A DNA stretch of 64,000 nucleotides from a virus (lineage: Duplodnaviria; Caudoviricetes): positions 96,001 through 160,000 of IMG/VR virus record IMGVR_UViG_3300005259_000074, one strand, 5' to 3'. Below the pieces are notes generated by a model that saw only the letters and a program-made list of their open reading frames with translations, did not search any database and had not been told where the DNA came from. Position 1 is the first letter of the stretch. The number at the start of each line of letters is the position of its first letter. Both the position numbers and the translations under genes were made by a program. Shown in pieces: positions 3,890 through 58,721 of the stretch.

Positions 3890-4435
3890 TCAGAAGCTCC
3901 GTTTCGCCACTAATATGTCGTCTTTCTCGTAGCCGTCTTCGAACGTGTAGGAGAACGCCTCTCCAAACACCTGCTCCAGGGCGCTCATTATGCCAGCTTC
4001 GTCGACCATGTTCCACTGTGGTATTCCACCCCTCCGGAAGTACCGGAAGTCATCGACCATGATCGTGTGGTCCCTACGATCCGGGTGTTTGGCTATCGCG
4101 CGGATCTCGGACAACACGGGGCAGCTGTCCGCGATGGGCTTTGGATCTATCGGGCTGTACGAGAAGTGGGAGTCGAGCCAGAAAGTAGCGGGGCCGGAGA
4201 ACCTAGAAAGCATGTCGGGCACACACTGAGAGCTGTCTCCGAAGAACAGAGACACCTGTGGGTAGTCTGCGAACTTCTTCTGGCACTTTCCGAACTTTAT
4301 CATGTTGCACTCGACGCTGTACGCCCGCTTGAAACCGCATTCCAGGGCCAGAGACACAGCTTCCCCCTCGCTGGTCCCAGTCTCGAAGAACACCGGGCTC
4401 ACGTACTTCTGCAGGACTTCTCTCGTCAACGGCAT
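3890..4435 (-). CDS. class I SAM-dependent methyltransferase-like protein
   Basis: FFETGTSEGE glycine loop, FFGDS, FWLDSH, IMVDD motifs typical of small glycan O-methyltransferases. Confidence 0.7.
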   Translation of the reverse strand: MPLTREVLQKYVSPVFFETGTSEGEAVSLALECGFKRAYSVECNMIKFGKCQKKFADYPQVSLFFGDSSQCVPDMLSRFSGPATFWLDSHFSYSPIDPKPIADSCPVLSEIRAIAKHPDRRDHTIMVDDFRYFRRGGIPQWNMVDEAGIMSALEQVFGEAFSYTFEDGYEKDDILVAKRSF

Positions 4436-4438
4436 CGC

Positions 4439-5314
4439 TCATCCCTCCTCTATGATCTTCAACAGATCTCTCGCTCTAGCGGCTACGGTGTGCCGCGCGG
4501 CGACTAAGTCTCTCGCGTTCTTCCCGACAGTCTTCCAAGCATCAGACTCTATCAGAGCGTCGATCTGTTCTAGCGATCTTATCTTACAGCAGGTGACACC
4601 GTCTTCGAAACCCAGCTCTCCCAGCTTCGCCATGTCGAACGTGATTATAGCAGCTCCGGCAGCTGCAGCTTCAAAGTACTTCGGCGGCACTAACCTATCG
4701 AAGACTCCACCCGAAGCGTAGTACTTAGCTGACGCTAACGCTCTCTCGTACTCGTCGGTGGTCAGCGCGTAGTTACCGAAAGTAGACGAGCACGACACCA
4801 CCGATTTCGGAAACTTCTTAGTCGCCACGTATTGGCTCACGATCCTCCTCAGGGGGTAGTTGTGGTTGACGCAGCCCGAGCACATGACCGACACGTCTCT
4901 GTCGGGGTTCCACTCTGGGACGCTCTCGACGAACCACGGTATGAAAGCGCACTTGATCCCCAAGTCTGATGCAAAAGCCTCGAAGTCTCTCGGGACTTCC
5001 TGCAGGAAGCACACTAAGTTGGGGCGGACTAACTTCGTCCAAGATTTCAGTTGAGACTCGTAATAGTCGCTGACAAACGTGTAGACGTACTCGGCGGGGC
5101 GGTGCTTCGGGACTGCATACAGCTGACAGTACGCTATGTCGTAGAACTCTCTCGGGACTTCGTACTCCTCGCACAGACGGTCCGAGCTGATCGGGTGCGG
5201 CGTTACGCTTGTACTCATCGCTCTCGGAAGAGCTGTGGCAATGCCCGTCTCCCAGAATTTGAAGTGGTCTGACTCACTCGCAGGTAAGTAGAAAGAAGCA
5301 ATGTGCAGATCCAT
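4439..5314 (-). CDS. GT-B glycosyltransferase (CgeB/GT1-like C-terminal domain)
   Basis: DVSVMCSG...YPLRR, YERALASAK, PKYFEAAAAGAAII, LGFEDG...TVGKNARDLV..RHT...RA. Confidence 0.75.
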   Translation of the reverse strand: MDLHIASFYLPASESDHFKFWETGIATALPRAMSTSVTPHPISSDRLCEEYEVPREFYDIAYCQLYAVPKHRPAEYVYTFVSDYYESQLKSWTKLVRPNLVCFLQEVPRDFEAFASDLGIKCAFIPWFVESVPEWNPDRDVSVMCSGCVNHNYPLRRIVSQYVATKKFPKSVVSCSSTFGNYALTTDEYERALASAKYYASGGVFDRLVPPKYFEAAAAGAAIITFDMAKLGELGFEDGVTCCKIRSLEQIDALIESDAWKTVGKNARDLVAARHTVAARARDLLKIIEEG

Positions 5315-5338
5315 CGTTAGTTCCTCGGTTGAGCGAAC

Positions 5339-5346
5339 TATTTACA
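5339..5346 (-). promoter_or_regulatory. T4-type late promoter TGTAAATA
   Basis: 25 nt upstream of the glycosyltransferase start at 5314. Confidence 0.6.
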
Positions 5347-5553
5347 CGCATTTTTGAGTTCAAAATCCGGGTGCTGGATGATGATTCGCTCTCAGATGTG
5401 GTTCAACGTGGGGCAGATCACTACTAGCGGTCTGCGCCTCTGGAAACACGCGTACGCCACTCGAGACCGTGTGCGGTGATCTCCGTGCGATCTACTCGCT
5501 GACACTCTAAATGAAATCTAGAGGAGACTGTGAATTATCTGTAGATGAAAAAT

Positions 5554-5714: not shown

Positions 5715-6353
5715 TCAGTTGAATACTGACGATGCCTGCTCAGAGTGCGAGACTAATTTTACTGACGCTATCATCGGCATGCACCACGTCCAAACTCGGT
5801 GTCTGCGGTAGACTTCTTCAAGCTCTCCGTACTTGTCGGCGTCGATCTTCTTCTCGCACAGTACCTTTCCCAACGACGCTCTGACGTTGTCGTTAGCGCC
5901 GGAGAATGGCGTCCAGTCCAGCTTGACTAATGTGTCGGTGGTGACCACGGGTAACGACGTGGTCTGCGTTACGGTCTGCCAGGTGATCACGTGGTCTAAG
6001 TGGCCGTACTCTCCGAACATGTTGTGGGTGAACACGCAGTCGCAACCGACAGACATAGACGTGATGTTCTTCGATATCTCCGAGAGGATGTCGCTGCGGA
6101 GGCCGTTCCTGTGGTTGACCTTCGCGAACTCGGAGTCGAAGGGGAGCACTCTGCGGTCAGCAGCTCTTATCCCGACTCTGTCGCACACTTCGAAGAGAGC
6201 GTCTTTCCTGTGCGCGCACCACTTCCTAACTGGGTTGTTCTCGTCGCTGGAGCACACTAAGATGCGCTTCTCCACCGTCGGGTCTAACAGCACGGCTGCG
6301 CCGAATATCAGCTCGTCGTCGGGATGAGACACTACGACTAAGACTCTAGACAC
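5715..6353 (-). CDS. PIG-L/LmbE family N-acetylhexosamine deacetylase
   Basis: VVSHPDDELIFG and FTHNMFGEYGHLDH metal-binding motifs. Confidence 0.85.
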   Translation of the reverse strand: MSRVLVVVSHPDDELIFGAAVLLDPTVEKRILVCSSDENNPVRKWCAHRKDALFEVCDRVGIRAADRRVLPFDSEFAKVNHRNGLRSDILSEISKNITSMSVGCDCVFTHNMFGEYGHLDHVITWQTVTQTTSLPVVTTDTLVKLDWTPFSGANDNVRASLGKVLCEKKIDADKYGELEEVYRRHRVWTWCMPMIASVKLVSHSEQASSVFN

Positions 6354-9310: not shown

Positions 9311-9604
9311 TTACTCTATTCTTTTCACTCTGTCTACCGAGATGGGCACAAAGACTGAGAACTGCCAACACACCATTCCTTCAGGTGGGTCAAACCCATA
9401 GTTATCTACATGGCTCCCTATTCCCTTTGGCTCGTACTCGACCTCTAGCAGCACTACTCCGAAGCTCTTAGGGAAGGGCTCCGGACTTAGGTAGGTATAT
9501 CTGTATGACGTATGCCCTCTCCTAGGAGTTGGTATTCCCCATAGCACACCCTCGGCTTGTATCTTCTTCCAATTCTCTTCTGTCGTGCGGTGGTAGAACT
9601 TCAT
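9311..9604 (-). CDS. small ADP-ribosyltransferase/Tpt1(KptA)-like fold protein
   Basis: FYHRTT..NW..I..EGV ... R ... YTYLS ... LLEVE pattern recalls YHGT..I..GL..VxLS of the ART/KptA fold. Confidence 0.45.
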   Translation of the reverse strand: MKFYHRTTEENWKKIQAEGVLWGIPTPRRGHTSYRYTYLSPEPFPKSFGVVLLEVEYEPKGIGSHVDNYGFDPPEGMVCWQFSVFVPISVDRVKRIE

Positions 9605-10290
9605 GTTCTACCCTCTAGATAGTGCCTCTTGACGCTATCGTGCCCGGTGTGCAGTATGATCTCGTTCCCACACCCGATGTCTTTCTCGCACACGCAGAAC
9701 TGCGGAGGAAGCGTGTAAGCAGCGAACTCAGTGTTCCACATAGCCCTCCACATAGCAGTTGGCCCTCTCACCGGAGTATTCTCCATGATGGTAAGATACT
9801 CTTCGAGGACTCTTCTAGATTGGTCGTGACAAGTGTTGAATGCTATCGGTGACATGTTCACTGCGTAGCCGCACCCCATCGCTTCTAACAGACCGTCGGA
9901 GTCGGCGCCGACCGTGTTGTCGACCGACACTAAGTGCCTAGCGTTAGCTGGGACTAGCAGGCCGAACTGCTCTGCTAAGTACAGCAGCGATCTGACTCTC
10001 ACCGCATCTACTACTAGCATGTCTGTGTCTACTGCGATCGCTACGTCAGCTTTAGACTCCGCGAGTCCTTTGACTTTGTAGTAGTCGTTGCACCGCCAGC
10101 CGTACCTGGGGTGAGCTCTGTCGTAAGGAGGAATGGCCGTCTTGACGTTGAACTCGGGAGGTCCGTCTCCGAAGTCGTCGGTGTACAGCGTCCAAGACGC
10201 TTCCGGAAAAGCGCTCTTGAAGCTGCTGAAAGACGGTTCGAACGAAGTTGCCCTCCCTCCGAACTGAGCCATCACGAACTCGACTCTCAC
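9601..10290 (-). CDS. GT-A-like glycosyltransferase
   Basis: AIAVDTDML (DxD), WRCNDYYKV, C-terminal ILHTGH; coupled to the neighbouring GTs. Confidence 0.6.
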   Translation of the reverse strand: MRVEFVMAQFGGRATSFEPSFSSFKSAFPEASWTLYTDDFGDGPPEFNVKTAIPPYDRAHPRYGWRCNDYYKVKGLAESKADVAIAVDTDMLVVDAVRVRSLLYLAEQFGLLVPANARHLVSVDNTVGADSDGLLEAMGCGYAVNMSPIAFNTCHDQSRRVLEEYLTIMENTPVRGPTAMWRAMWNTEFAAYTLPPQFCVCEKDIGCGNEIILHTGHDSVKRHYLEGRT

Positions 10291-11048
10291 GCGTTCACCA
10301 CTTCTTTCAGTCTTCCCTTGTAGTGTAAGACTATCACGTCCGGGTCGTTCACCGCTCTGCGGATCTCCATCGAAGCCCTGTCGAAGCTCTGTGGGTCGCG
10401 CTGCTCGACCGATGGGCAGTAGTTGTACCCAGGTCCCAGGTCAGCTAGAGATATGTCGCCTGGCGTCTTCCCAGTCTTGACGTAGTCCTCCCATACTGCG
10501 CAGAAGAAGTCTTGCTCGGAGAACCACTCTAAGTGCAGAGGGTGGTTGAACTTGCGGCGGAACTTGACGTAGGGCTCCCACGTGGGGGTCTTCATCTGCT
10601 CTAGGTAGAACTTTAAGAAATCGCGAGTCTTAGCGTTCCACCTGAACGCCTCAAAACCGGTGTTTATGACGTACCAGTACTTGTAGTGGCGAGTCGTGAC
10701 AGCCCAGTCGAAGTCCATCTTGAAGCAAGAAGTGACGTCTCTCTTCGCTATCATGTCTGTGTCCATCGTCACAACGCGGTCTCCGACTTTAAGATCGAGA
10801 TCGCTGAGGGTGGATATCTTATCATAAGTCGGGAACTCCGACTTCTCGTAGTGCTTCCACGTCATCATACCCGGGTAGTTCTCGGATATCTCGGCGGCGA
10901 ACTCACCTCTGGAGTCGTCCCAAGCTTCTCCTGCCGCGTGGAACACCATCGTCACGTCTTTCGGCACGTTAGACAGCACGGACCTGACCATCGACTTAGT
11001 CATCGAGTCTATCTTCTTGTCGAATATGCAGTGTACTAACGTCTTCAT
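10287..11048 (-). CDS. GT-A nucleotide-diphospho-sugar transferase (GT8/GT77-like)
   Basis: VVTMDTDMI, INTGF, EQDFF, YNYCP, VLHYKG. Confidence 0.8.
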   Translation of the reverse strand: MKTLVHCIFDKKIDSMTKSMVRSVLSNVPKDVTMVFHAAGEAWDDSRGEFAAEISENYPGMMTWKHYEKSEFPTYDKISTLSDLDLKVGDRVVTMDTDMIAKRDVTSCFKMDFDWAVTTRHYKYWYVINTGFEAFRWNAKTRDFLKFYLEQMKTPTWEPYVKFRRKFNHPLHLEWFSEQDFFCAVWEDYVKTGKTPGDISLADLGPGYNYCPSVEQRDPQSFDRASMEIRRAVNDPDVIVLHYKGRLKEVVNA

Positions 11049-11935
11049 TTCTTTCCGTTCATCGTCGTCTCGAACATGTATTTAAACGATTCGACTTTGA
11101 CGTCCCACGACCAGCTCACCATCTTAGCGCTGACTTGTCTGCCGATGAACTCCCTGCGGGAGGAGTCGTCCATCTTCAGGTCGGCCAGCACATCTGCGAA
11201 AGCCTTGGCGTCTCTGTCGACTAAGAACTCTTCACTGACCATCTCGGCGGCAGCTCCGACTCGCGTCGACACTACCGGAGTCCCGCACGCCATCGCCTCC
11301 ATCGTCGGGTTGTTCTGCCCCTCTGATGCGGAAGCTATGCACAGCACGTCCAGACTCCTGTAGAAATCGGCCATCTCGTCTCGAGACAGCTTCTCCGCGT
11401 ACTTCAGCTCACAACCGGCTACTTCACATGCGCGCTTGACGACGTCGAATCCCTTGTCCCCACCTGATCTGGGGTTTCCCGCGACTCCGACTACCAGGCC
11501 GGAGTCTCTCCAGATGCGTTCTCCGACGTTGAATACCCTTAAGTCTATCCCGTGTTGGACGAGTAACACGCTGGGATCGACTTTTGCGAACTCGTCTTGG
11601 TGAGCTCTACACACCACGTGGAACACAGATGCTCGGTCTTTTACGTATCTGGCATAGTGTTTGTCGGCACCTTCGTTCTTCCAGGAGAACTCGCACCTTA
11701 TCCCAACGCACGTCTTGTCTCGTGGGACCGGTGGATTCCTCTCGAAGAGCCTAGTGTCCATCACGTAGACGCAGTCGAAAGCATCGTAGAACTTGGGATC
11801 TTTAGGAAATCCTATGTCTCTGTAAACGCACTGAGTCTCGTATTCCGGAGTCAACCGCTTCGATATCTCCCTCCTGTGGGAGTCGAACACCCAAGACGGT
11901 GTGTCAGCTAGGAACAAGAGTTTCTTCACACTCAC
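11045..11935 (-). CDS. GT4 family glycosyltransferase
   Basis: DVLCIASASEGQNNPTMEAMACGTPVVSTRVG (EX7E). Confidence 0.9.
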   Translation of the reverse strand: MSVKKLLFLADTPSWVFDSHRREISKRLTPEYETQCVYRDIGFPKDPKFYDAFDCVYVMDTRLFERNPPVPRDKTCVGIRCEFSWKNEGADKHYARYVKDRASVFHVVCRAHQDEFAKVDPSVLLVQHGIDLRVFNVGERIWRDSGLVVGVAGNPRSGGDKGFDVVKRACEVAGCELKYAEKLSRDEMADFYRSLDVLCIASASEGQNNPTMEAMACGTPVVSTRVGAAAEMVSEEFLVDRDAKAFADVLADLKMDDSSRREFIGRQVSAKMVSWSWDVKVESFKYMFETTMNGKK

Positions 11936-15277: not shown

Positions 15278-16296
15278 AGTATCTCTCCGTTCATGATGTT
15301 ACCACTCAGGTCTCCGCTCAGAGTCTCCAAGTAGAAGTCGTAGTAATCTAGCGTCGACATGCCCTTTGGAAAATACCCCGTGTCATTCACCAGAAGGAGG
15401 TCTCCATCAGTGGTCGTCAAGAACTGCGGATCGCCTGAGAGGGGGGCAGGCCCTGACACCAGACCTGAGACGGTCCCTGACACGTCACTCCAATATCCCG
15501 AGAGGCCGGCGGATATCGGGAGGAAGTCCCACGCGTCTAACTTTATGAGGCCGCATATGATTGCTCCCTCATACTGGGAGAACGTTGTGGTCATAGGCAC
15601 TGTGTACCAGCGGTCCAGCATGTAGTTCTCTCCGACGGTCAGTAAACCAGGAGCGAAGTTGATGCGCTTTATTAGTGGTGTCGAGTCTCCGAGAGCGTCT
15701 GGGTCTGCTCCCATCCCTGGAAATATCCAAGTCTTATATGTGAACTGGGTGTTGGCGATTATCCTGTAAGGGTCGTTCTCGGTGACCTCTTCTGGCCAGT
15801 CCACTTGTAAGTCTCCGTCCCACACCACTTGGGACTTGATGTTCTTAGTCGGTTGCTTGGGGTGTGGCCAGACCACGTAGAAGTCTGGGTTGCAGAAAGG
15901 TATGAAGTTCGACACTATCTGGTCGAGATCGCTGTGGGTCTTAGTCACTATCGAGAGTGTGAAACCTATGTTCATCGGTACTGGAGAGTTCTTTATCAGC
16001 TGTGGGAGGCCGTCTGACGTCCCCTGGTAACGCAGCCTCTGCTGTAAGTCGTATGCCCGGGTGTTGTCTCTGGTCATGGAGTTCACCGAGAGCGTGATCA
16101 GCGGTATCTTCAGCGTCTTATCTCTGTTCTCTAGTGACTTGAGGACGCGGTCGCGCTGGCCGAACACACACGGGACCTTTATCAGCTCTTGCACGACGTT
16201 CTTGTTGTCGCGGCGGTCTATCACTATCGACGAGAAGACGTCTAACAGCTGAGCGGTGCTGGTCCTAAACTCTGCATTGTAAGAGCGGTACTTCAT
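15274..16296 (-). CDS. gp15: tail sheath stabilizer/completion protein (T4 gp15-like) with SG-rich C-terminal extension
   Basis: F..IVIDR...IKVPCVFGQRDRV...IPLITL......D..R...PVPMNIGFTLSI.TK...DLDQI..NFIPF.NP. Confidence 0.85.
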   Translation of the reverse strand: MKYRSYNAEFRTSTAQLLDVFSSIVIDRRDNKNVVQELIKVPCVFGQRDRVLKSLENRDKTLKIPLITLSVNSMTRDNTRAYDLQQRLRYQGTSDGLPQLIKNSPVPMNIGFTLSIVTKTHSDLDQIVSNFIPFCNPDFYVVWPHPKQPTKNIKSQVVWDGDLQVDWPEEVTENDPYRIIANTQFTYKTWIFPGMGADPDALGDSTPLIKRINFAPGLLTVGENYMLDRWYTVPMTTTFSQYEGAIICGLIKLDAWDFLPISAGLSGYWSDVSGTVSGLVSGPAPLSGDPQFLTTTDGDLLLVNDTGYFPKGMSTLDYYDFYLETLSGDLSGNIMNGEIL

Positions 16297-16321: not shown

Positions 16322-16357
16322 TATTTATGGCGCATTGGCGCCCAACGCGTGTAAATA
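16322..16357. promoter_or_regulatory. back-to-back divergent late promoters (CATAAATA minus 16322-16329; TGTAAATA plus 16350-16357)
   Basis: Located exactly at the strand switch between gp15 and the portal gene. Confidence 0.65.
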
Positions 16358-49100: not shown

Positions 49101-49438
49101 ACTCGAGTTCATCGTCATCGAGTTCTAGCAGCGAGTCAGTGTCTAGCAGTTCATCTTCAAGTTCTTCGACTGACCCTGCGACCATCTGTTATTTCGGCGT
49201 ACTAACGTGGGGAACTAACTCAACAGATCCGTTGAACGGAGGATGTGCTAACGGTGGACAAGCTGGTTGTTGCAACGATGCGACAATGACGAGTAGTTGG
49301 CCAAAGGTCGTCCCGGGCGTTGTCACATACATCGAGAGCGGTTATTTCGCTGGTTGTCACGTCATGCTCTTACCATGCGGTTATAGCTGTGCAAGAGTTT
49401 ATGATCATCCTGAGTGGCCTTGCACCTGCTCGTGTTAA
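46145..49438 (+). CDS. large baseplate wedge-like protein (gp7-like) with poly-Ser linkers and a Cys-rich tip
   Basis: NFVQNIRDIETC..HQLYSMASEL and LAQKFAMIGT..AIE..I motifs; position after gp6 and the fibres. Confidence 0.55.
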   Translation: MLKYFPKKGEDFSTTAKAKEFSINQVWQNYDELWNFVSGSTEGIGSLVFEHVSNFVQNIRDIETCGLHQLYSMASELDVSQVFSYDLEYPYHLERLMDELSISRSHLLCSGSVLQDGVISQLYTDVGSQVSSIVWYSPSGYVTSGYIPGAVSAVVYSNVIVDSTYLTDVIEGSISANLAYYANQSLYASGAMSGVAADYLGFMSEIYSIPSAFTFTASNSAQVVMDCTHTLRNIAVKASYQRETLKRLAQKFAMIGTTNAIEKIIGEYILRGFTRKDDWRLYVTPSGSGQSNLTNLSYALESHLPRLTDINSYFNVDVVEYYDTTEYLNVSAESAPNYIAQYSSGYLTSSWIDISGNLCEVQYMSPSAVVAWVPSGYVVTGGNSRFWEGDVFSDSTYMTDWTADQISGYFSSMGLSAMTLPEATGFHAFVWDILAASGYNRYAVIPELTGVLTPKYAATPVSGYDSVPASGWLTPRTSLSAMHFKYIGNASGDTPPANIQNSLYPTVAPQPFIWNLVEKIYQDYPDLLSTILMTEQATSGQWSQMVDASGNLIDSWKYFNHEYMGYQTAYEQSDNLNWAETMDPNIDRDGPFNPNALSAFITSYDGTYATIQQTLSGYFASISKEYATSGVPTSVSAQLVDYRDDMLALSGMTIAQYGFDQYDNNYILYKQYAGYENTGTIWMRYRNHPLPFPMCDGPYSNWREQQVFLYGGLGMGLQDIVNGGCYDMGHIGDVMWVYGSPASGASDRLCVFHNDYTWFPSPSAVTLFSVVVDSNGGDLPQYIDIDRKNFVGSYSFQDWLIFVQLIPTSGDITAGGNFGNFKFNHYNTITHVFEDAQFTNLNLQNLPPLYYAGDNSRPFRLSASQSMVTIAYESDNSSHAAESYTGAGFANGITTIDIDINSLSDVAGAYTVFEWYRVLEDTSGEGPCYGLCSSSSSSATSSSSSSTHPTPPGIWIWWEAGGSSSSSSSSSSSSSSSSHSSSSSSNSSSSSSSSSSESVSSSSSSSSSTDPATICYFGVLTWGTNSTDPLNGGCANGGQAGCCNDATMTSSWPKVVPGVVTYIESGYFAGCHVMLLPCGYSCARVYDHPEWPCTCSC

Positions 49439-49584: not shown

Positions 49585-50163
49585 ATGAAATTTTTCGACA
49601 TTTTAACTGAGTTGACTCTCTCAGAGTCTTTCAGTGACAACGCATACGTCTTTGACTTCGACGACACGCTGTTTCACACTGACTGTAAGATAGAGGTTAG
49701 AGACAAGAAGACTGGCGGAGTGGTCAAGCGCTTGTCGTCGGCTCAGTTCAACCACTACAAGTTGGACTCAGGAGAGGAATTCGACTTCTCGGAATTCGAA
49801 GACGTCTCGCGGATAATGGCTGGGAAACCTGCTAAGATGCTCAGAGCTGCGCAGAACATATCTGATGCAGTGACTAGCGGCAAATCCAATAGCGTCATCT
49901 ACGTGGTCACTGCGAGAGCTGGAATGGGGACAGAAGACGCTATAACGTCTGTGTTGAACAAACACGGTGTCTTCGTCAAGCGAGAGAACGTGTACGCGGC
50001 CGGTAACACTGCCAAAGACACTGGGGACATCCCCACTGAGAAGTCTAAGATTGTGAAGAGCATCCGTGAGAGACACGGAGGTAAGATAATGTTCTACGAC
50101 GACAGCTCGGCCAACGTGGCCGCTGTCAAGGATGTCAAAGGCGTCAACGCCAGAAAAGTCTGA
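49585..50163 (+). CDS. HAD-superfamily phosphatase
   Basis: YVFDFDDTLF (motif I), VVTAR (II), K (III), FYDDSSAN (IV). Confidence 0.85.
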   Translation: MKFFDILTELTLSESFSDNAYVFDFDDTLFHTDCKIEVRDKKTGGVVKRLSSAQFNHYKLDSGEEFDFSEFEDVSRIMAGKPAKMLRAAQNISDAVTSGKSNSVIYVVTARAGMGTEDAITSVLNKHGVFVKRENVYAAGNTAKDTGDIPTEKSKIVKSIRERHGGKIMFYDDSSANVAAVKDVKGVNARKV

Positions 50164-51622
50164 GATAGTGTCTACAAAGAGACTGAAACTGGAGAATTTC
50201 GCTTCCGGCCCAGGCGCTAAGCAGTTCGTCTTAACGACTACTTATATGCTCGGATCGGCTGCCATACCCCTGTCTTCCGACGTGTTCTTCGCCGGACAGG
50301 ACGGGTACGCGTTAGAAGCTACTCCGGCGAACGTGTACCAGGGGTATGGCTCAGACTCCACGATATACAGCCAGAACTTCTTCTTCAGAGACTACTCCGT
50401 GATGAATCCGGACGCAGCTCTCAGTGGAGTGGGGCTGACCGTCCGCCCGAACAGAGCCTCAGCTAAAGACTTAGTGCAATTCGGTGACTACTCATTCTTA
50501 TTGACTAACGACACAGTGTCAGGACTGTTCTTCGCTGCGCAAACTACGCCCGACTCGGCTGTCTCAGGATGCGTCAGAGAAGACAACTTAGTGGTGACAT
50601 ACGCCCCTTCAGCTACATCAGACGACCCAGAGATAGACATCATATACAGAGACGTCTCGTTCAACGCCAGCACAGAAGAACCTGACTTGATATTCGCGTC
50701 TCTAGACACATCTGGTTACACTATCTACGTCAAAGACGCAGTGCTGTCTGGAGACTCTGCGTACGCGATCCCGGGGGCGAGTGGCATTCCTTTCGCGTGG
50801 ATGTTAGAGTACGATCTCAAGAACGAAGCTATATTTCCCGAGCCAGCTCAAGTATTCGGAAAAGCTGACGGCACTACTTTCGTATGGAATACACTAGTTA
50901 AAGAAGCTGATGCAGAAGTATATTCACCTAACGCATCAGCAGACACCATATCGAAGATACTGGTGAATCCGTTCGCTCTGAAGAATATGTACAATTACGA
51001 CTGGAACGTTGAGGGAGACAGAGACACCGGAAAATTGACTGGTGTCAGAAACTACGTGAAGTGTGGAAAAGCTCAGAATCAGATGTGGATGAGTTATCGT
51101 TATTTCCGAGATGAAGAAGATGTAACGCAAAACTACGAATACATCGAGAGGACAGCAGGACTCTATAAGTTCCAACCAGCTAATGGTCATAAGAGCAACA
51201 TATACTCAGTGAGGATCAACAACTCGGGGTTAACCGACGATCAGAGAGAACCAACAGAAACGAGGACCGCTAAAGAACAGCTGCGCACTATCATTGAACA
51301 AGTCATCAAAAATGCTGTTAAAAAGATAGCTCCTGTCAACACTCACTTGTGGATGGTCGACTGGAAAGGACAAACGCTCGTTACTCAATCGAGCAGTTCG
51401 TCGAGTAGCAGTTCATCCAGTTCGTTATCTTCTAGCAGCTCTTCAAACAGCTTCAGCTCCAGTTCGTCAAGCAGTTTCAGCAGTAGTTCTAGCAGCTTTT
51501 CGTCGTCTAGCTCGTTCTCGAGCAGTTCTTCGAGCAGTTTCTCATCGTCTAGTTCTTCTGAGAGTTCGTCTAGTAGCTCATCATCCAGTTCTTCTGAGAG
51601 TTCTAGCAGCAGTTCTATTTGA
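50132..51622 (+). CDS. virion structural protein with a 76-residue Ser-rich C-terminal tail
   Basis: IIEQVIKNAVKKIAPVNTHL resembles baseplate-wedge C-termini; the true start may be the GTG at about 50168. Confidence 0.6.
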   Translation: MSKASTPEKSEIVSTKRLKLENFASGPGAKQFVLTTTYMLGSAAIPLSSDVFFAGQDGYALEATPANVYQGYGSDSTIYSQNFFFRDYSVMNPDAALSGVGLTVRPNRASAKDLVQFGDYSFLLTNDTVSGLFFAAQTTPDSAVSGCVREDNLVVTYAPSATSDDPEIDIIYRDVSFNASTEEPDLIFASLDTSGYTIYVKDAVLSGDSAYAIPGASGIPFAWMLEYDLKNEAIFPEPAQVFGKADGTTFVWNTLVKEADAEVYSPNASADTISKILVNPFALKNMYNYDWNVEGDRDTGKLTGVRNYVKCGKAQNQMWMSYRYFRDEEDVTQNYEYIERTAGLYKFQPANGHKSNIYSVRINNSGLTDDQREPTETRTAKEQLRTIIEQVIKNAVKKIAPVNTHLWMVDWKGQTLVTQSSSSSSSSSSSSLSSSSSSNSFSSSSSSSFSSSSSSFSSSSSFSSSSSSSFSSSSSSESSSSSSSSSSSESSSSSSI

Positions 51623-53709: not shown

Positions 53710-53717
53710 TATAAATA
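53710..53717 (+). promoter_or_regulatory. late promoter TATAAATA
   Basis: Exact T4 late consensus; heads glycosylation cluster B. Confidence 0.75.
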
Positions 53718-53747: not shown

Positions 53748-54563
53748 ATGAGTGATCTCTTCAAGTTCGACCGATCAGTGTTTGTCGACGTAGACGACAA
53801 ACGAGTGCAGATGTTGTTAGACAGTTCTCTGTCCCAACTAGAATTCATAAAACTCATGAAAAACAGTGATCCTTGGGTAATCTCCAACGGAGAGCTGAAA
53901 CTATTGACTGAAAAAGACATCCAAGCTGGAAAAGACAGCTTCGCAAAATTCAGAAGGGGTGTCATCCAAAAGACAGGTGGAATCACACCTGATCTCATTA
54001 AGACTTATAAAGATCTGATAATCAGTGTATATCCCGAAATGACAATCCATTATGATAACACTGAGAAGGAGATATCAGAATCCGGGTGTCCAGAGTGCGC
54101 AATCAACGGAAAATATGCGAAACTTGTCGAGACTCTTGTGTCTCTAAAACCTGACGGCAGAGATTTGTCAAAGTTATCAATCTTAGGGGACACGCCTCTG
54201 AAGAAACTCAGAGGAGAAGAGATAGACCCATCTACGATAGTGATCGAATACCCAGAGGGAGTCGAGCGCAGCCTCCCGAAGATGAAGACCGGAAATTCGA
54301 AGAGCGCTCCAGCCGGCGTTGTCACAGGCATTTTTCAGAGGCCTTCGTGCAAGCTGTGTGTCGTCAAACACCTCGCGTACGCGTTCGAGTGCCTGAAAGA
54401 AGTAGCGGCGGGATACACACTCGAGCGCGGGCACGACCACTTCGCTCTCGCAGTAGCCAGCCTCGAGCACGCAGAGCAAGAAGCTCTGAAAGACGACGCC
54501 AACTTAGCTGAGAAGATAAGAGACTTCCGGAACAGGCTGGAGTCAAAGGTGTCGTGGAAATGA
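53748..54563 (+). CDS. hypothetical Cys/His-motif protein
   Basis: CPEC and CKLCVVKH...HDH...EH motifs. Confidence 0.6.
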   Translation: MSDLFKFDRSVFVDVDDKRVQMLLDSSLSQLEFIKLMKNSDPWVISNGELKLLTEKDIQAGKDSFAKFRRGVIQKTGGITPDLIKTYKDLIISVYPEMTIHYDNTEKEISESGCPECAINGKYAKLVETLVSLKPDGRDLSKLSILGDTPLKKLRGEEIDPSTIVIEYPEGVERSLPKMKTGNSKSAPAGVVTGIFQRPSCKLCVVKHLAYAFECLKEVAAGYTLERGHDHFALAVASLEHAEQEALKDDANLAEKIRDFRNRLESKVSWK

Positions 54564-55690
54564 ACACCGCAGTCGCGTCCAGAGAGATGCTTGGTGAGCT
54601 GGAGAACCTCTTGACAGAGAGCCAGACCGGCATGGAGTTGGAGATCGGCGACAGAGCGGTGTCCGCTCTGGCTAGCGAAGTTGGAAAGCTGTTCAGAGAC
54701 TCTGCTCTACTTCCGTTCGGAGAGCCGAAGAAGGTGATCCTCGAGAACTACCAGTCTCCCGGAGACTTAGTGATGATGACTGCAGCCGTCAGAGATCTTC
54801 ACAGAGCTTATCCCAACAAGTTTATAACAGACGTTCGCACTTCTTGTGGAGACATCTGGCTCAACAACCCCCACATAACTCACATAGACGACAAAGACCC
54901 AAAGGCGATAAGAATCAAAGCTGAATACCCGCTGATACACCAGAGCAACGGTGGGGCGCTCCCCTTCATACACGGTTTCGCGCAAGACCTCGCTGATAAA
55001 CTAGGAATCCCGCGGTTCCCCATCACAAAGTTCGCAGGGGACATCCACATATCTCCTCAGGAGAACTCGTGGTACAGCGCTCCTTGGGAGATATTAGGGA
55101 AAGATGTCCCGTACTGGGTCATAGACGCTGGATACAAGACCGACTTTACCTGCAAGAACTGGGGAAAGAAGAACTGGCAGCAGCTCATCGAGATGTGCCC
55201 AGAGATACAGTTCGTCCAGATCGGCCACAAAGACCACATCCACCCGAAATTGACTGGTGACAACGTGATAGACTTAGTTGGGAAGACAGACACTCGCCAG
55301 CTGATCAGGCTGATCTACAACTCGTTCGGAGTCGTGACGCCGTGCAGCTTCCCGTTCGTGCTGGCGTACAGCGTGCCTCCGCACCCGCGGTTCAAGCGGA
55401 AGTCTAGGCCGTGCGTAGTCGTCGCCGGTGGTCGAGAACCCGTCGAATGGCAGCAAGCGCCGAACGTGATGTTCATGCACACCTGCGGAGCGCTCCCGTG
55501 CTGCGACTACGGTGGGTGCTGGGTCAGCCGCGTCAAACCCCTGGGAGACGGAGACCACAAAGACAAGAACACCTGCCTCCACCCAGTCGCTTGGGGCGAT
55601 GAGTTCATACCGCGGTGCATGCAGATGATCAGAGCTGACCACGTGGCTTACTGGATAGAGACTACGACAGAGGAGCTGGACTTCAAGTGA
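54554..55690 (+). CDS. GT9-like (heptosyltransferase-fold) glycosyltransferase
   Basis: SPGDLVMMTAAVRDL..AYP...DV...IW.NNPHI, K.W....WQ.L, IDLVGKT..RQL. Confidence 0.8.
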   Translation: MEMNTAVASREMLGELENLLTESQTGMELEIGDRAVSALASEVGKLFRDSALLPFGEPKKVILENYQSPGDLVMMTAAVRDLHRAYPNKFITDVRTSCGDIWLNNPHITHIDDKDPKAIRIKAEYPLIHQSNGGALPFIHGFAQDLADKLGIPRFPITKFAGDIHISPQENSWYSAPWEILGKDVPYWVIDAGYKTDFTCKNWGKKNWQQLIEMCPEIQFVQIGHKDHIHPKLTGDNVIDLVGKTDTRQLIRLIYNSFGVVTPCSFPFVLAYSVPPHPRFKRKSRPCVVVAGGREPVEWQQAPNVMFMHTCGALPCCDYGGCWVSRVKPLGDGDHKDKNTCLHPVAWGDEFIPRCMQMIRADHVAYWIETTTEELDFK

Positions 55691-55977
55691 GGTACGAGTG
55701 CGCTATCTGCGGCTACGCGAGCGACGAACGGAGTCGCGTGCACGAGCACCACATCACTCCGCGCGCTTCCGGAGGCACTGAAGACAAGTGGAACAAAGTC
55801 GTGCTCTGCCCGAACTGCCACGCTAGAGTTCACGTCCCTGGAATGACGCACGGCATCCACTCGGTCGTCAGAGAAGACTCGATAGTGATAAACTGCTGGA
55901 GGAACGACCACACGCTGCTAGAGTGGAGACTGGCTGGCAGTGACGTCTTGGCGTACACTCCACACAAGACGCTCTAG
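55687..55977 (+). CDS. small HNH endonuclease
   Basis: CAICG...HEHHI.....GGT....N...LCPNCHARVH. Confidence 0.85.
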   Translation: MRYECAICGYASDERSRVHEHHITPRASGGTEDKWNKVVLCPNCHARVHVPGMTHGIHSVVREDSIVINCWRNDHTLLEWRLAGSDVLAYTPHKTL

Positions 55978-56116
55978 AACGTGTTTGCGAGGGTTCTGAG
56001 AAGGAGGAAGATGCGAGTCAGTGGTTACCGTTGTCGGAACGATGAAAGTGATCTGCGCCGCTGGAATGAACTTAACAAACTCAAAGATAGTTCACAGTAT
56101 CTGTTAAGTGCTCTGA

Positions 56117-56194
56117 CCACCAGTTCAAAAATCTTCATCTGAGCAGTATTTTCAAGAGTTAATCCAGAGGACGGTTAAGAATAAAGGAGTTGAA
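56117..56194 (+). repeat. dispersed 78-bp intergenic element, copy 2
   Basis: 69/78 identical to 5554..5631. Confidence 0.9.
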
Positions 56195-56224
56195 GGGAAG
56201 TAGTAAACAATGTACTGTTTATAA

Positions 56225-56304
56225 CAGTATACATTCAATTGATCAATTTCAGTATACATTATTGATTCAATAATTCAATATACATTCAATTTATTGATTC
56301 AATA
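56225..56304. repeat. AT-rich array of direct and inverted repeats
   Basis: CAGTATACATT x2 (56225, 56250); TATTGATTCAATA x2 (56260, 56292); palindrome AATTGATCAATT (56237-56248). Confidence 0.85.
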
Positions 56305-56340
56305 AACATTAGTACGAGTGGAACGAAAGATCTTCGAAAA

Positions 56341-57168
56341 ATGACCACAGTGTTATCCGACTTCTCCCGTAAGAGAGCTCTAGAACAGTGTCGAGGAGCT
56401 AAGAAAGTCCTCGTAGACTTCGCGCACGGTCTCGGCGACACGGTGATGTTCCTCCCAGTTTTCGACGAGTTTCGTAAGAACGTCTCAGATGCACGCGTAG
56501 ACTTGTTGACTCACTTCGGCCAAGAAGAGGTGTTCGGCGTCAAGACTGTTCAGTACTCGGAATACGATGTAGTGCTGACGTTGCCTTACGCCATGGCCGA
56601 GAACAGCGGGTCTACGAAGTCGGAAGCGTGCTGCGTCAGAGAACTCGGGATATTGCCGAATGCGGTGAAAGACAACTTGAAGTCTGCGTGGTACAGAGAC
56701 AACTACTCCCGAGTGTTCAGCTCGGACGAATCGTTCCGGAAGTCTAGTCCTTTCGTGCTGTTCGCCTTCCAGAGCACCGCCCTCCCAGACCCGTGCAACT
56801 GTCCTCCGCAGTTAGCTGAGACTCTCTGGAGAGAAGCCGAGAGCGTCGGGAAGATACCGATTGAATGCCACTTCTCCCACTGCTTCGCCAACCCCCGCAA
56901 CGCACAGTACCCTTTCGTGGGGAACTCCACTACCAGGAAGCTACCACCCAGAGTGCAATTGCTCGCCGACACGGTGAAGACCAGCTTCGCGTTCGTCGGA
57001 GTCGCGACGGGCTCCACTGTCGTCGCCATGGCCGGGAGCTCTCTTAGGACGGCTTTCCTAGAGAGGGCGTACCACAGGAGAGACTACTTCACTGAGGTGG
57101 GTCCGACGTTCAGCATCGACGACTACCGCCCCGGCAGCCTGGCCGCGTGGCTGAGAGGACTGGAGTGA
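56341..57168 (+). CDS. GT9-like glycosyltransferase
   Basis: VLVDFAHGLGDTVMFLP...R..V.DARVDL; FVGVATG. Confidence 0.65.
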   Translation: MTTVLSDFSRKRALEQCRGAKKVLVDFAHGLGDTVMFLPVFDEFRKNVSDARVDLLTHFGQEEVFGVKTVQYSEYDVVLTLPYAMAENSGSTKSEACCVRELGILPNAVKDNLKSAWYRDNYSRVFSSDESFRKSSPFVLFAFQSTALPDPCNCPPQLAETLWREAESVGKIPIECHFSHCFANPRNAQYPFVGNSTTRKLPPRVQLLADTVKTSFAFVGVATGSTVVAMAGSSLRTAFLERAYHRRDYFTEVGPTFSIDDYRPGSLAAWLRGLE

Positions 57169-57172
57169 CACC

Positions 57173-58114
57173 GTGAGAGCGTTCGTGCTATCTTGTGACG
57201 AGAACTACGTCGAGTACCTCAGGGCCTTCATCGGTAGCGTGCAGCGCCGTGGGATAGACGCGCGCGTCGTAGTAGTCCACCCTCCGGGGTTGAGGCTTCC
57301 AGCGGGTTGCGTATCTTTCGTGAACTCCAGGCCTCGAGAGTACTTGAAGACCGGTGGTAAGATGAAGGGGAAGACCCACAGCAACATCGGTTTCTGCCGG
57401 TGGGCCAGCATCCCTAAGATAGCTGCCATGGGCTACAGTTCGCTCTGCCTGATGGACGCCGACATGATGGTGACTTCTAAGCGCGTGGAGAACTTGTTCG
57501 ACGCCGTAGAGGGGACGTCTGTCATAGTCGGCGGAGACGAGGAGTCTAAGTGGGGGTTGGGACCGCAGTACCGGTACGTGAGAAAAGACGGATCGGACGT
57601 CAAGTTCTGCCAAGACCGCGCTGACCTGACTAGGATGAACTCTTTCTTCTGCATGCCGGTGTTCTTAGATGGAAGAGACCCGAATATCGTAGCGCTGTGC
57701 GAGAAGATAGAAGAAGTCAAGTACACCTCTTATCAGGAGAGAGACGGCAACGTCGACTTCTTGTGCGACATGTTCACCCACAACCTGTGCGTGCACGAGA
57801 CGGGTTTAGACCGACGAGTCGTGCAAGTGCCGATGGCGCAGACTACTCAAGTGCACTTCGTGGGATACACTCCGTTCGACCTGATCAGGGAAGAAGCCGG
57901 AGACTGGTACACCAAAGATGGTCTGCCGGTCTACTCCATGCACGGTAAGTTCGCGTCTAAGACGTTCGTCAAAGACTACATGTGGGGTTGCAATCGCAAG
58001 CTAGAGCTGTGGGGGATACAGAAGCAGATGGAGCACTACTTGCCGGAAGCTCAGAAGGTGCTCGAGAGGGTCCAAGCAGAGTGGAGGCTGTGCCATGATT
58101 CAGTTCGCGCGTGA
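57173..58114 (+). CDS. GT8-like glycosyltransferase
   Basis: FVLSCDENYVEYL.AFI.S, F.RW, CLMDADMMV, YSMHGK. Confidence 0.75.
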   Translation: MRAFVLSCDENYVEYLRAFIGSVQRRGIDARVVVVHPPGLRLPAGCVSFVNSRPREYLKTGGKMKGKTHSNIGFCRWASIPKIAAMGYSSLCLMDADMMVTSKRVENLFDAVEGTSVIVGGDEESKWGLGPQYRYVRKDGSDVKFCQDRADLTRMNSFFCMPVFLDGRDPNIVALCEKIEEVKYTSYQERDGNVDFLCDMFTHNLCVHETGLDRRVVQVPMAQTTQVHFVGYTPFDLIREEAGDWYTKDGLPVYSMHGKFASKTFVKDYMWGCNRKLELWGIQKQMEHYLPEAQKVLERVQAEWRLCHDSVRA

Positions 58115-58721
58115 CGAGTTCGGCTTCTGGAAGCAAGTTGACCCCTCCCCTTTCGTGTACACGGAGGAGTACAAGAGCCGCCAGTCGACGAACGAAGCGA
58201 TGTCTTTCCTCAGGCTGGGGTGGTTGGCGGCTCATTTGGGGCTCTCGGAGATGAAGAAGATGCGAGCAGTCGACGTCGGTTGCGGCAATGGGGAGTTCGT
58301 CAAACACGCTCAGAACTTCTTCTCGAGGGCTGTCGGCTACGACGTGGCTGGGAACAGCATATCTGAGCGAGAGCTAGCCGAGACGGAGTGGGACTTAGTA
58401 GTGCTGTCTGACGTGTTGGAGCACTACTCAGACATCGACGACCTGTTCGACCTGAAGTGGAAGTTCGCGTTCGTCTCGTTCCCGGAGACACCTCGTGTAG
58501 ACGACTGGAGAGAGCTCCAGTCGATGGGTTTTCGGCACTTCAAGCCGGACGAACACCTGTGGATGATGAACTCGCTGGGTTTTAGAGAGTGGTCCGCGCG
58601 GTTAGGAGCTGAGACAATAGCTGAAGACTGCTTCGAAGACGCGATCAGGACTAGGTGGGACCCACGCGTGAGGAACATCAGCAGTTTCTTGTTGAAGAGG
58701 CACCCATTCCCCTATAAATAG
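58095..58721 (+). CDS. class I SAM-dependent methyltransferase
   Basis: AVDVGCGNG, VGYDV, VLSDVLEH, FRHFKPDEHLW. Confidence 0.85.
   Translation: MIQFARDEFGFWKQVDPSPFVYTEEYKSRQSTNEAMSFLRLGWLAAHLGLSEMKKMRAVDVGCGNGEFVKHAQNFFSRAVGYDVAGNSISERELAETEWDLVVLSDVLEHYSDIDDLFDLKWKFAFVSFPETPRVDDWRELQSMGFRHFKPDEHLWMMNSLGFREWSARLGAETIAEDCFEDAIRTRWDPRVRNISSFLLKRHPFPYK

What the first reader, a model, noticed from the sequence alone, without database searches (positions are those of the whole stretch)
3890..58721. Two late-expressed glycosylation clusters (7 GTs, 2 methyltransferases, 1 deacetylase): candidate virion glycosylation pathway
Cluster A (minus) has GT4 11045, GT-A 10287, GT-A-like 9601, PIG-L deacetylase 5715, GT-B 4439 and MTase 3890. 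Cluster B (plus) has GT9-like 54554 and 56341, GT8-like 57173 and MTase 58095. The cluster A GTs at 9601-11935 are joined by 4-nt overlaps into the operon that starts at the gp15 late promoter. The 4439/3890 pair has its own TGTAAATA, and cluster B follows TATAAATA at 53710. The families resemble oligosaccharide-chain builders (LPS-core-type GT8/GT9, GT4) plus capping and tailoring enzymes, not T4 DNA glucosyltransferases. Inference: a multi-sugar, methylated and deacetylated glycan is built on virion proteins, for shielding or host recognition.
Basis: partly seen in the sequence, partly recalled or inferred. Interest (0 to 1): 0.8.

Follow-up and report, generated by a model that had tools for sequence, protein, structure and literature searches.

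The report
Phage glycosylation genes beside poly-serine proteins
An uncultured 262-kb T4-like phage carries ten sugar-modifying genes behind late-type promoters inside its virion gene block. One of them, a GT9 enzyme, follows a poly-serine protein gene in about a fifth of related loci, so glycosylated virion appendages are the best reading, though untested.

Summary
All ten ORFs exist and each family call has support. That support is strong for GT4 11045, GT-B 4439, PIG-L 5715, MTase 58095, GT9 54554 and GT-A 9601. It is indirect for GT9-like 56341, GT-A-like 57173 and 10287, and MTase 3890.

Both clusters are conserved modules. The four enzymes of cluster B recur as one cassette in other phages and in a bacterial chromosome, and once as a single fused ORF. 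In cluster A, 10287, 9601 and the PIG-L gene recur together in 24 of 25 viral loci.

The new evidence concerns poly-Ser. The genome's only three poly-Ser proteins lie 0.05-7.6 kb upstream of cluster B. Among 52 unique loci of the 54554-type GT9, 11 have a poly-Ser ORF within 3 kb upstream, against 3 of 215 other bins (p 1e-6) and 0 of 25 control loci. This favours O-glycosylation of poly-Ser stalks on virion appendage proteins.

Nothing shows glycosylation, timing or virion membership directly. The target of cluster A is open. Another first-reader note had already flagged the poly-Ser tracts.

The parts
15274..16296 (-). gp15-like tail sheath stabiliser, first gene of the minus-strand operon that carries three GTs
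   Evidence: phrog_227 at 5.7e-24. GTGA overlap with the next ORF.
16322..16329 (-). late-promoter-like CATAAATA, 26 nt before the gp15 start
11045..11935 (-). GT4 glycosyltransferase (GT-B)
   Evidence: Pfam Glyco_trans_1_4 2e-16; NCBIfam best matches are MshA/BshA-type GT4, far below their cut-offs.
10287..11048 (-). GT-A-like glycosyltransferase (DTD motif)
   Evidence: hhalign to the 9601 family, probability 72%, E 3e-5. Homolog directly upstream of the 9601 homolog in 9 viral loci. TTTAAATA at 11079-11086.
9601..10290 (-). retaining GT-A fold glycosyltransferase (GT6/GT8-like), a family without a Pfam model
   Evidence: AlphaFold pLDDT 95.5. Foldseek matches to GT6/GT8 at E 1e-8 to 2e-9. 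D88 and D90 nearly invariant.
9311..9604 (-). 97-aa ORF of unknown function, overlapping 9601 by 4 nt
   Evidence: ATGA overlap. An ORF of 93 aa stands at the same place in relative L053; its homology to this ORF was not checked.
5715..6353 (-). PIG-L/LmbE-family de-N-acetylase
   Evidence: Pfam 30.5 bits against a cut-off of 28.2. Homolog next to the 9601 homolog in 24 of 25 viral loci. CGTAAATA at 6705-6712 precedes the unit.
4439..5314 (-). GT-B glycosyltransferase
   Evidence: Glyco_trans_1_2 at 1.2e-8. Homolog in the L072 cluster. TGTAAATA at 5339-5346, 25 nt before the start.
3890..4435 (-). class I SAM methyltransferase, probably a sugar O-methyltransferase
   Evidence: Profile against the PDB: PIMT 1.8e-4, KsgA 2.7e-4, COMT 5e-3. 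Homologs sit in cyanophage sugar clusters and in the M. avium GPL cluster.
46145..49438 (+). 1097-aa protein with poly-Ser tracts (aa 936-1007) and a Cys-rich C-terminal tip
50132..51622 (+). 496-aa protein ending in a poly-Ser tail of about 75 aa
53080..53700 (+). 206-aa protein: N-terminal domain, poly-Ser (aa 107-142), aromatic tip; the proposed proximal acceptor
   Evidence: The tract is kept in relative L003.
53710..53717 (+). exact TATAAATA, 31 nt before the first gene of cluster B
53748..54563 (+). 271-aa ORF of unknown function, first gene of the cluster B operon
   Evidence: No family hit. Conserved at 73% identity in L003.
54554..55690 (+). GT9-fold glycosyltransferase (GT9a) with an invariant C-terminal Cys cluster
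55687..55977 (+). HNH endonuclease inside the cassette
   Evidence: phrog_144 and others. Kept in both relatives.
56341..57168 (+). GT9-like glycosyltransferase (GT9b)
57173..58114 (+). GT-A-like (GT8/Nucleotid_trans-like) glycosyltransferase, DAD motif
58095..58721 (+). Methyltransf_23 SAM methyltransferase
   Evidence: Pfam 2.8e-9; phrog_6564 8.5e-13. 39% identical homolog in the bacterial cassette.
58749..59966 (+). 405-aa Ser/Thr/Gly-rich fibre-like protein with its own TATAAATA (58713-58720)

Best explanation
Cluster B (53748-58721) is a late operon whose first glycosyltransferase, the GT9-fold enzyme 54554, works in the cytoplasm. It O-glycosylates the poly-serine tracts of the appendage proteins encoded just upstream (53080, 50132, 46145), probably with a heptose from an ADP-heptose-type donor. 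The GT9-like 56341 and the GT-A-like 57173 extend the chain, and the methyltransferase 58095 caps it. The result would be mucin-like glycosylated stalks on baseplate or fibre proteins.

Cluster A is a second glycan-building set. The retaining GT-A 9601 probably adds a HexNAc that the PIG-L enzyme 5715 then de-N-acetylates. 10287, GT4 11045 and GT-B 4439 add further sugars, and 3890 O-methylates. Its acceptor is unknown; it may be the same virion glycoproteins.

Shown here: the gene families, module conservation, promoter-like motifs and the GT9/poly-Ser gene linkage. Inferred: the acceptor, the donor sugars, the order of steps, the timing, and whether the proteins are in the virion.
For: 1. 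Only three ORFs in the 262-kb genome have 20 or more Ser in a 30-aa window. All three lie 0.05-7.6 kb upstream of cluster B. The tracts use all six Ser codons, so they are kept at the protein level.
2. Across 98 unique loci of the GT9a family, 11 of 52 with a complete 0-3 kb upstream bin carry a poly-Ser ORF there, 10 on the same strand. The five other 3-kb bins hold 3 of 215 (Fisher p 1.4e-6).
3. 22 of 98 GT9a loci have a poly-Ser ORF somewhere in the flank, against 0 of 25 control phage loci covering 411 kb (p 0.004).
4. Poly-Ser-linked GT9a genes lie on about ten or more separate deep branches of the family tree. The poly-Ser proteins are unrelated outside the tract and share a layout of N-terminal domain, poly-Ser, variable tip.
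5. The model is a GT9 fold. Every named GT9 enzyme among the matches is a heptosyltransferase, and these include the TibC/Aah/BAHTCr enzymes. TibC acts as a heptosyltransferase on the autotransporters TibA and AIDA-I (PMC4358343).
6. An exact TATAAATA lies 31 nt before the operon, which sits between tail-fibre genes (phrog_523 3.5e-45, phrog_105) and a fibre-like gene. The order is kept in two relatives.
7. GT9a, GT9b, the GT-A and the MTase recur as one cassette and as a single fused ORF.
8. None of the enzymes has a predicted membrane helix. Family scans of the ORFs tested in and around the clusters found no flippase, polymerase or ligase.
9. No homolog of the genome's own hmC-pathway genes lies within 10 kb of either module in 65 loci, apart from one sub-threshold match (E 0.0011) in L030/L043.
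10. The 9601-PIG-L pair is adjacent in most of 25 loci. This fits the known logic of HexNAc transfer followed by de-N-acetylation (PIG-A/PIG-L, MshA/MshB; textbook knowledge).
Against: - About 78% of GT9a loci show no poly-Ser ORF in the flank available. One shallow phage clade of about 28 tips and a Pirellulales clade have none.
- The cassette also sits in a bacterial chromosome next to gyrA, with no obvious acceptor.
- GT9, GT4 and GT8 are exactly the soluble enzyme set of LPS core synthesis, and LPS heptosyltransferases match the GT9a model as well as TibC does.
- GT9a lacks the N-terminal beta-barrel of TibC, and its Cys pattern differs from the TibC iron finger.
- The poly-Ser proteins have no detectable homolog in cultured phages and no Pfam family, so their place in the virion rests on gene position alone.
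- Homologs of the cluster A module show no poly-Ser link.
- Timing rests on a motif.
Confidence: 0.45

Rival explanations
1. The enzymes remodel a host envelope glycan, such as LPS core, O-antigen precursor or capsule, at the inner face of the membrane. This would mask receptors, block superinfection, or stop progeny from sticking to debris.
For: GT9, GT4 and GT8-like enzymes are the LPS-core enzyme set, and like the enzymes here they are soluble. Large T4-like cyanophages with up to 13 GTs are usually read this way (PMC12801897). Homologs of 3890 sit in such cyanophage clusters. The cassette also occurs in a bacterial chromosome.
Against: Late-type promoters and a position inside virion operons fit poorly with changing the surface of a cell that is about to lyse. 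The family scans found no membrane, flippase or ligase gene among the ORFs tested. This reading does not explain the poly-Ser linkage.
Confidence: 0.2
2. Some or all of these GTs extend a glycan on hypermodified cytosine in the phage DNA. The genome's separate hypermodification operon would start that glycan.
For: The genome has a thymidylate-synthase-like gene, a dNMP kinase, a C5-MTase-fold gene, a GT-B and an NDP-sugar pathway next to gp43. LPS-, TarP- and MshA-like phage GTs build mono- to trisaccharides, including heptose and HexNAc, on 5hmC, sometimes near structural genes (bioRxiv 10.1101/2023.12.21.572611). Homologs of the cluster A module lie near DnaB or RNR genes in a few loci.
Against: No homolog of this genome's hmC-pathway genes lies within 10 kb of either module in 65 loci (one sub-threshold match in L030/L043). 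One search reports that such pathways usually cluster. No late-type motif was listed inside or directly before the DNA operon. The passages of that study read here named no sugar methylation or de-N-acetylation step for DNA glycans. The poly-Ser linkage is left unexplained.
Confidence: 0.12
3. The two clusters have different targets. Cluster B glycosylates poly-Ser proteins that are not virion parts (secreted, injected or intracellular). Cluster A makes a separate GlcN-containing glycoconjugate or small molecule.
For: Cluster A homologs form their own module with no poly-Ser link. In L069 they sit among CMP-sugar synthetase, MptE/Maf-like, DegT and GT2 genes. The GT4 plus PIG-L pair is also the first half of mycothiol- and bacillithiol-type pathways (for family level only; otherwise textbook knowledge). 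The poly-Ser proteins have no proven structural role.
Against: Three cluster A GTs are translationally coupled to gp15 and its downstream genes. The poly-Ser genes sit between baseplate- or fibre-like genes, and late-type motifs occur through that block.
Confidence: 0.15

Closest known systems
Bacterial autotransporter heptosyltransferases (TibC, Aah, BAHTCr) with TibA/AIDA-I
   Same: GT9 fold (Z 19.1 to TibC). The enzymes are soluble, and the enzyme gene sits next to the gene of its repetitive substrate (cytoplasmic Ser modification and aah-aidA / tibC-tibA gene order are from my own knowledge; TibC's heptosyltransferase activity on TibA is from PMC4358343). A Cys-rich insertion lies near the C-terminus of the C-lobe.
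   Different: Identity is only about 13%. There is no N-terminal beta-barrel: residues 1-50 are helical and are absent in most homologs. The Cys pattern differs, C-x4-CC-x4-C...C...C against TibC Cys-339/342/358/370. The acceptor here would be a disordered poly-Ser tract, not a beta-helix. The substrate gene lies upstream, not downstream.
Serine-rich repeat glycoprotein systems of Gram-positive bacteria (GtfA/B plus GT8-type Gly enzymes)
   Same: Ser-rich acceptor tracts are modified by several soluble GTs of the GT4 and GT8 kinds. S. pneumoniae GlyF is among the structural matches of 9601. The rest is from my own knowledge.
   Different: There is no GtfA/GtfB pair, no accessory Sec system and no dipeptide repeat. 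The priming enzyme here would be a GT9.
Mycobacteriophage virion glycosylation (Freeman et al. 2023, as summarised in PMC12619734)
   Same: Phage-encoded GTs are associated with glycans found on virion proteins.
   Different: In mycobacteriophages the glycans sit on the C-termini of the capsid and tail-tube subunits. Here the candidate acceptors are poly-Ser stalks of appendage proteins in a T4-like phage, with GT9, deacetylase and methyltransferase steps. I could not read the original paper.
LPS inner- and outer-core glycosyltransferases (WaaC/WaaF GT9, WaaG GT4, WaaO/J GT8)
   Same: The same fold families and soluble enzymes. WaaF and WaaC are the best named structural matches of GT9a.
   Different: The genes are phage late-operon genes. 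No Kdo or lipid A genes were found among the ORFs tested. The GT9a family carries an invariant Cys cluster that Waa enzymes lack (the lack in Waa enzymes is from my own knowledge), and it is linked to poly-Ser genes.
Phage DNA glycan hypermodification clusters (bioRxiv 10.1101/2023.12.21.572611)
   Same: Phage GT-A and GT-B enzymes related to LPS or teichoic-acid enzymes build oligosaccharides. This genome also makes a modified cytosine.
   Different: Clusters A and B are not next to thymidylate-synthase-like, 5mYOX or C5-MT genes, either here or in 65 related loci.
GT-rich large T4-like cyanophages (S-SCSM1, S-SCSM2R, P-SSM2)
   Same: Large T4-like genomes with 8-13 GTs, sugar epimerases and methyltransferases. 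The S-SCSM1 methyltransferase is 35% identical to 3890.
   Different: No homolog of 54554, 56341, 9601 or 5715 was found in any cultured phage. The function of the cyanophage clusters is also unknown.

Membership tests
GT9 (CAZy glycosyltransferase family 9), for 54554 | GT-B fold closest to known GT9 structures | tested here: met
   Z 23.4, 21.2, 19.8 and 19.1 to 3tov, WaaF, WaaC and TibC, against 12.3 or below for other GT-B classes.
GT9, for 54554 | Pfam PF01075 above the gathering score | tested here: not met
   E 0.32, 10.7 bits against a cut-off of 22. Some homologs at about 50% identity do carry PF01075.
GT9, for 54554 | Uses an ADP-heptose donor | not testable with these tools
   Inferred only, from the fact that the named GT9 structural matches are heptosyltransferases.
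BAHT (TibC/Aah) protein heptosyltransferases, for 54554 | N-terminal beta-barrel domain | tested here: not met
   Model residues 1-50 are helical and of low confidence, and are absent in most homologs. TibC residues 1-97 form a beta-barrel.
BAHT, for 54554 | Four-Cys iron finger inserted in the C-lobe | tested here: inconclusive
   Invariant C316, C317, C322, C341 and C355 lie in the equivalent region but with different spacing. Metal binding cannot be tested here.
GT9, for 56341 | Homology to a domain that passes PF01075 | tested here: met
   The L012 domain hits PF01075 at 1.7e-16 over aa 610-713. tblastn of 56341 to that region gives 1e-7. The HMM built on 56341 finds GT9/FkbM fusion proteins.
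GT4, for 11045 | Pfam Glycos_transf_1 / Glyco_trans_1_4 above the cut-off | tested here: met
   60.9 and 49.2 bits against cut-offs of 27 and 26.4.
Retaining GT-A (GT6/GT8 clan), for 9601 | GT-A fold with a DxD motif | tested here: met
   pLDDT 95.5. GT6/GT8 matches with TM up to 0.68. D88 and D90 nearly invariant.
GT8, for 57173 and 10287 | Pfam PF01501 or a structural match | tested here: inconclusive
   No Pfam hit. Linked to the 9601 family by hhalign at probability 90% and 72%. The L005 homolog of 57173 hits PF01501 only at E 0.047.
PIG-L/LmbE deacetylase, for 5715 | Pfam above the cut-off, with metal-binding HPDD and HxDH motifs | tested here: met
   30.5 bits against 28.2. Both motifs are seen in the translation.
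Class I SAM methyltransferase, for 3890 | Rossmann-type SAM-binding motif I region aligned with known MTases | tested here: met
   Profile hits at 1.8e-4 to 5e-3, all to class I MTases, over profile positions 9-93. The substrate is unknown.
T4-type late promoter | TATAAATA-like element at -10, with transcription dependent on gp55/gp33 | tested here: inconclusive
   The motif is enriched: 4 against 0.5 expected, and 36 of 72 NNTAAATA sites lie within 60 nt upstream of a start. Only 53710 and 58713 are exact. No expression data were available.

The most novel reading that the evidence does not exclude
Many uncultured phages encode a previously undescribed two-part system. One part is an appendage protein with a long poly-serine stalk. 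The other is a dedicated GT9 glycosyltransferase with a Cys-cluster, often joined by a second GT9, a GT-A and methyltransferases. Together they would turn the stalk into a mucin-like, methyl-capped glycan brush on the virion. This would be virion O-glycosylation as a common trait of phages outside the mycobacteriophages.
Probability: 0.4. Interest if true: 0.8.

Novelty: new variant of a known kind. Interest (0 to 1): 0.66.

Why it matters
According to the summary read here, glycans have been observed on the capsid and tail-tube subunits of mycobacteriophages. To my knowledge, glycosylated virions are otherwise documented mainly in giant viruses. The many GT genes of large T4-like phages have no assigned target.

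A recurrent gene pair of poly-Ser protein and GT9 gives that question a concrete test: one enzyme, one simple acceptor. If confirmed, it would define a new class of phage glycoproteins relevant to host recognition, particle stability and shielding. It would also add a new protein-acceptor branch to the GT9 family. Finally, it would warn against reading every phage GT as either a DNA modifier or a host-surface modifier.

Tried and rejected
1. ADP-heptose supply by the gp43-linked operon. I suspected GmhA/GmhB/HldE. However, the SIS protein is closest to 6-phospho-3-hexuloisomerases, the HAD protein to KdsC, and the nucleotidyltransferase to cytidylyltransferases. The link is dropped.
2. Single-sequence searches for 54554, 57173 and 3890 against the PDB, and NCBIfam and Pfam scans at loose E-values, gave nothing usable.
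3. Profiles of the 54554 and 9601 families against PDB sequences gave no significant hit.
4. Word-based homolog searches for 10287 and 57173 found only two close relatives each.
5. The search for related loci with the single proteins 54554 and 3890 found nothing. The full 9601 alignment was too diverse to use.
6. A degenerate (WSN)12 DNA pattern, meant to find poly-Ser elsewhere in five large viral records, was too unspecific. It did show Ser-rich tracts 46-60 kb from the GT9 gene in two records.
7. No sequencing run was listed for cluster B, so there are no expression data.
8. I could not tell TibC-like from WaaC-like from the fold. The Z scores are tied within about 1-4 units.
9. No complex prediction was sent, because an enzyme-substrate pair with a disordered acceptor is a poor case for that test.
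10. The moraphage paper (PMC12619734) describes a different, non-T4 lineage.

Full report
**Context.** The window is bases 96001-160000 of a 262,470-bp IMG/VR virus record rated 97% complete. It is a distant T4-like phage. The ORF at 15274-16296(-) is a gp15 tail sheath stabiliser (phrog_227, 5.7e-24), at most about 29% identical to cyanophage gp15. Megablast of window 9000-16000 against cultured phages found no near-identical DNA.

**The observation.** All ten ORFs exist.
- Four pass Pfam cut-offs: GT4 11045, GT-B 4439, PIG-L 5715 and Methyltransf_23 58095.
- The other six have no Pfam, NCBIfam or PDB-sequence hit and needed deeper work.
- 54554 folds with pLDDT 84.6 into a GT9 fold. Z is 23.4, 21.2, 19.8 and 19.1 to a Veillonella GT9, WaaF, WaaC and TibC, with a clear gap to other GT-B classes at 12.3 or below. 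Reviewed-protein matches are LPS and autotransporter heptosyltransferases.
- 9601 belongs to a family of 157 representatives with no Pfam hit in 47 members tested. It folds with pLDDT 95.5 into a retaining GT-A fold nearest to GT6 and GT8 enzymes.
- 57173 and 10287 connect to that family by profile-profile comparison (probability 90% and 72%) and carry DxD-type motifs.
- 56341 is homologous to a domain that passes the Pfam GT9 model inside a fused protein.
- 3890 gives a profile that hits only class I SAM methyltransferases. Its homologs sit in cyanophage sugar clusters and beside gtfB in the M. avium glycopeptidolipid cluster.
- The count of seven GTs, two methyltransferases and one deacetylase therefore stands, with graded certainty.

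**Operon structure and promoters.** The GTGA/ATGA overlaps linking gp15, two unknown ORFs, a DUF6782-like ORF, the three GTs and a 97-aa ORF are real. NNTAAATA motifs lie 25-31 nt before the starts at 16296, 11048, 6680, 5314, 53748 and 58749. Half of all 72 such motifs in the genome lie within 60 nt upstream of a predicted start. Exact TATAAATA occurs four times in the window against 0.5 expected.

**Limits of the observation.** 'Cluster A' is three units, separated by small Cys-rich ORFs, a Dam-like methyltransferase and DUF5662. The genome also has a GT2 at 189.8 kb and a GT-B in a cytosine-hypermodification operon.

**Both clusters are conserved modules.**
- Cluster B keeps its order in two relatives: fibre genes, a 270-aa ORF, GT9a, HNH, GT9b, GT-A, MTase, then a fibre-like gene.
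- Its four enzymes recur as a cassette in a bacterial chromosome beside gyrA. There GT9a is 50% identical, the MTase 39%, the GT-A 27%, and GT9b is fused to a Methyltransf_24 domain.
- One Pirellulales ORF fuses GT9a, GT9b and an FkbM methyltransferase. Another phage group combines GT9a with a GT9b-FkbM fusion, a Nucleotid_trans GT-A and UDP-galactopyranose mutase.
- For cluster A, a PIG-L homolog of 5715 lies beside the 9601 homolog in 24 of 25 viral loci. The 10287 homolog is directly upstream in nine loci, GT4 is present in two, and 4439 in one. A 79% relative keeps GT4, 10287 and 9601, followed by an ORF of 93 aa.
- In one locus the module sits among CMP-sugar synthetase, MptE/Maf-like, DegT, GT2 and PLOD-GT genes.

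**The acceptor.** None of the enzymes has a predicted membrane helix, so the chemistry is cytoplasmic. The genome's only three poly-Ser proteins (46145, 50132, 53080) all lie just upstream of cluster B. Their tracts use all six Ser codons, and the tract is kept in a relative. Another first-reader note had flagged these tracts.

I then asked whether the link recurs. I dereplicated 122 loci of the GT9a family from viral, metagenome and genome collections to 98.
- A poly-Ser ORF lies in the 0-3 kb upstream bin in 11 of 52 loci, 10 on the same strand.
- The two further upstream bins hold 0 of 38 and 1 of 43. The three downstream bins hold 0 of 56, 1 of 47 and 1 of 31.
- Fisher p is 1.4e-6.
- Control loci centred on the 9601 family have none in 411 kb (p 0.004 for 22 of 98 against 0 of 25).
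- Poly-Ser-linked GT9a genes are spread over about ten or more deep branches. A shallow clade of about 28 tips and a bacterial clade lack the link.
- The poly-Ser proteins are unrelated outside the tract. They share a layout: an N-terminal domain of roughly 90-160 aa, a poly-Ser tract of about 30 to several hundred aa, and a variable, often Cys-rich tip.

This is the pattern expected of an enzyme and its substrate. [quoted passage not shown] GT9a is not a BAHT member, however. It lacks the beta-barrel, and its invariant Cys cluster has a different spacing.

**Rivals.**
- Host envelope. The GT9/GT4/GT8 combination is also the LPS-core enzyme set, and large cyanophages with many GTs are usually read as modifying the host surface.
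- DNA. LPS-, TarP- and MshA-like phage GTs build mono- to trisaccharides, including heptose, on 5hmC, and this genome has a thymidylate-synthase-like gene, a kinase, a C5-MTase-fold gene, a GT-B and an NDP-sugar operon. Against DNA: no homolog of those genes lies within 10 kb of either module in 65 loci, apart from one sub-threshold match, and no late-type motif was listed inside or directly before that operon.
- My idea that this operon supplies ADP-heptose failed. Its SIS, HAD and nucleotidyltransferase parts resemble hexuloisomerase, KdsC and cytidylyltransferases.

**Verdict.** Virion or appendage protein glycosylation is the best reading for cluster B (about 0.45 for the whole model), resting on gene linkage and not on chemistry. 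The target of cluster A is open. No cultured phage has homologs of 54554, 56341, 9601 or 5715, and no expression data could be obtained. The full-text literature searches run here found no paper describing a poly-Ser/GT9 pairing in phages.

Noticed in passing
L012:3316-6375: A single 1019-aa ORF in a Pirellulales MAG fuses a 54554-type GT9, a 56341-type GT9 (PF01075 at 1.7e-16) and an FkbM methyltransferase. This fusion argues that the cassette enzymes act together.
   Followed up: partly
window 7322-8188 (-): A Dam-like N6-adenine DNA methyltransferase (phrog_56 at 3e-63, DPPY motif) lies between the GT operon and the PIG-L unit. DUF5662 (6728-7300) is next to it.
   Followed up: no
window 8534-9291 (-): Four small ORFs of 56-67 aa, two of them Cys-rich, continue the gp15/GT operon downstream of 9311. 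They resemble the Cys-rich miniprotein family that other notes report for this genome.
   Followed up: no
window 50132-51622 (+): This 496-aa protein ends in a poly-Ser tail of about 75 residues with no domain after it, unlike the other poly-Ser proteins. It could be a real free tail or an assembly or frame problem in the repeat.
   Followed up: no
window 60261-61100 (-): The gene at the matching position in the 91% relative L003 carries Pfam Amidoligase_2. A 35% homolog lies 6 kb from the GT9 gene in L042. It could ligate an amino acid to a sugar or a protein, but this was not tested.
   Followed up: no
window 55687-56340 (+): An HNH endonuclease followed by a 360-nt non-coding gap splits the GT cassette. 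The arrangement is kept in both relatives, which suggests a homing element fixed inside the operon.
   Followed up: no
G000:C1:189758-190519 (-): A further GT2 glycosyltransferase (PF00535 at 1.8e-19) lies outside the window. Its homologs abut the 9601-PIG-L pair in L059 and L060, so it may belong to the cluster A pathway.
   Followed up: partly
L002:2889-10094 (G000 205.9-213.1 kb): The cytosine-hypermodification operon next to gp43 has a sugar pathway built from Rpe, a hexuloisomerase-like SIS protein, a KdsC-like phosphatase and a cytidylyltransferase-kinase fusion. It is not an ADP-heptose pathway, and the sugar is unknown.
   Followed up: partly
window 1911-2516 (-): A weak cytidylyltransferase-like match (PF01467, E 0.015) two genes downstream of the 3890 methyltransferase. 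It could activate a sugar or a nucleotide.
   Followed up: no
whole record: A protein 100% identical to 10287 is on record from a 313,637-bp contig, longer than the 262,470-bp record that IMG/VR classes as a provirus. The trimmed 51 kb might hold host or further phage DNA.
   Followed up: no
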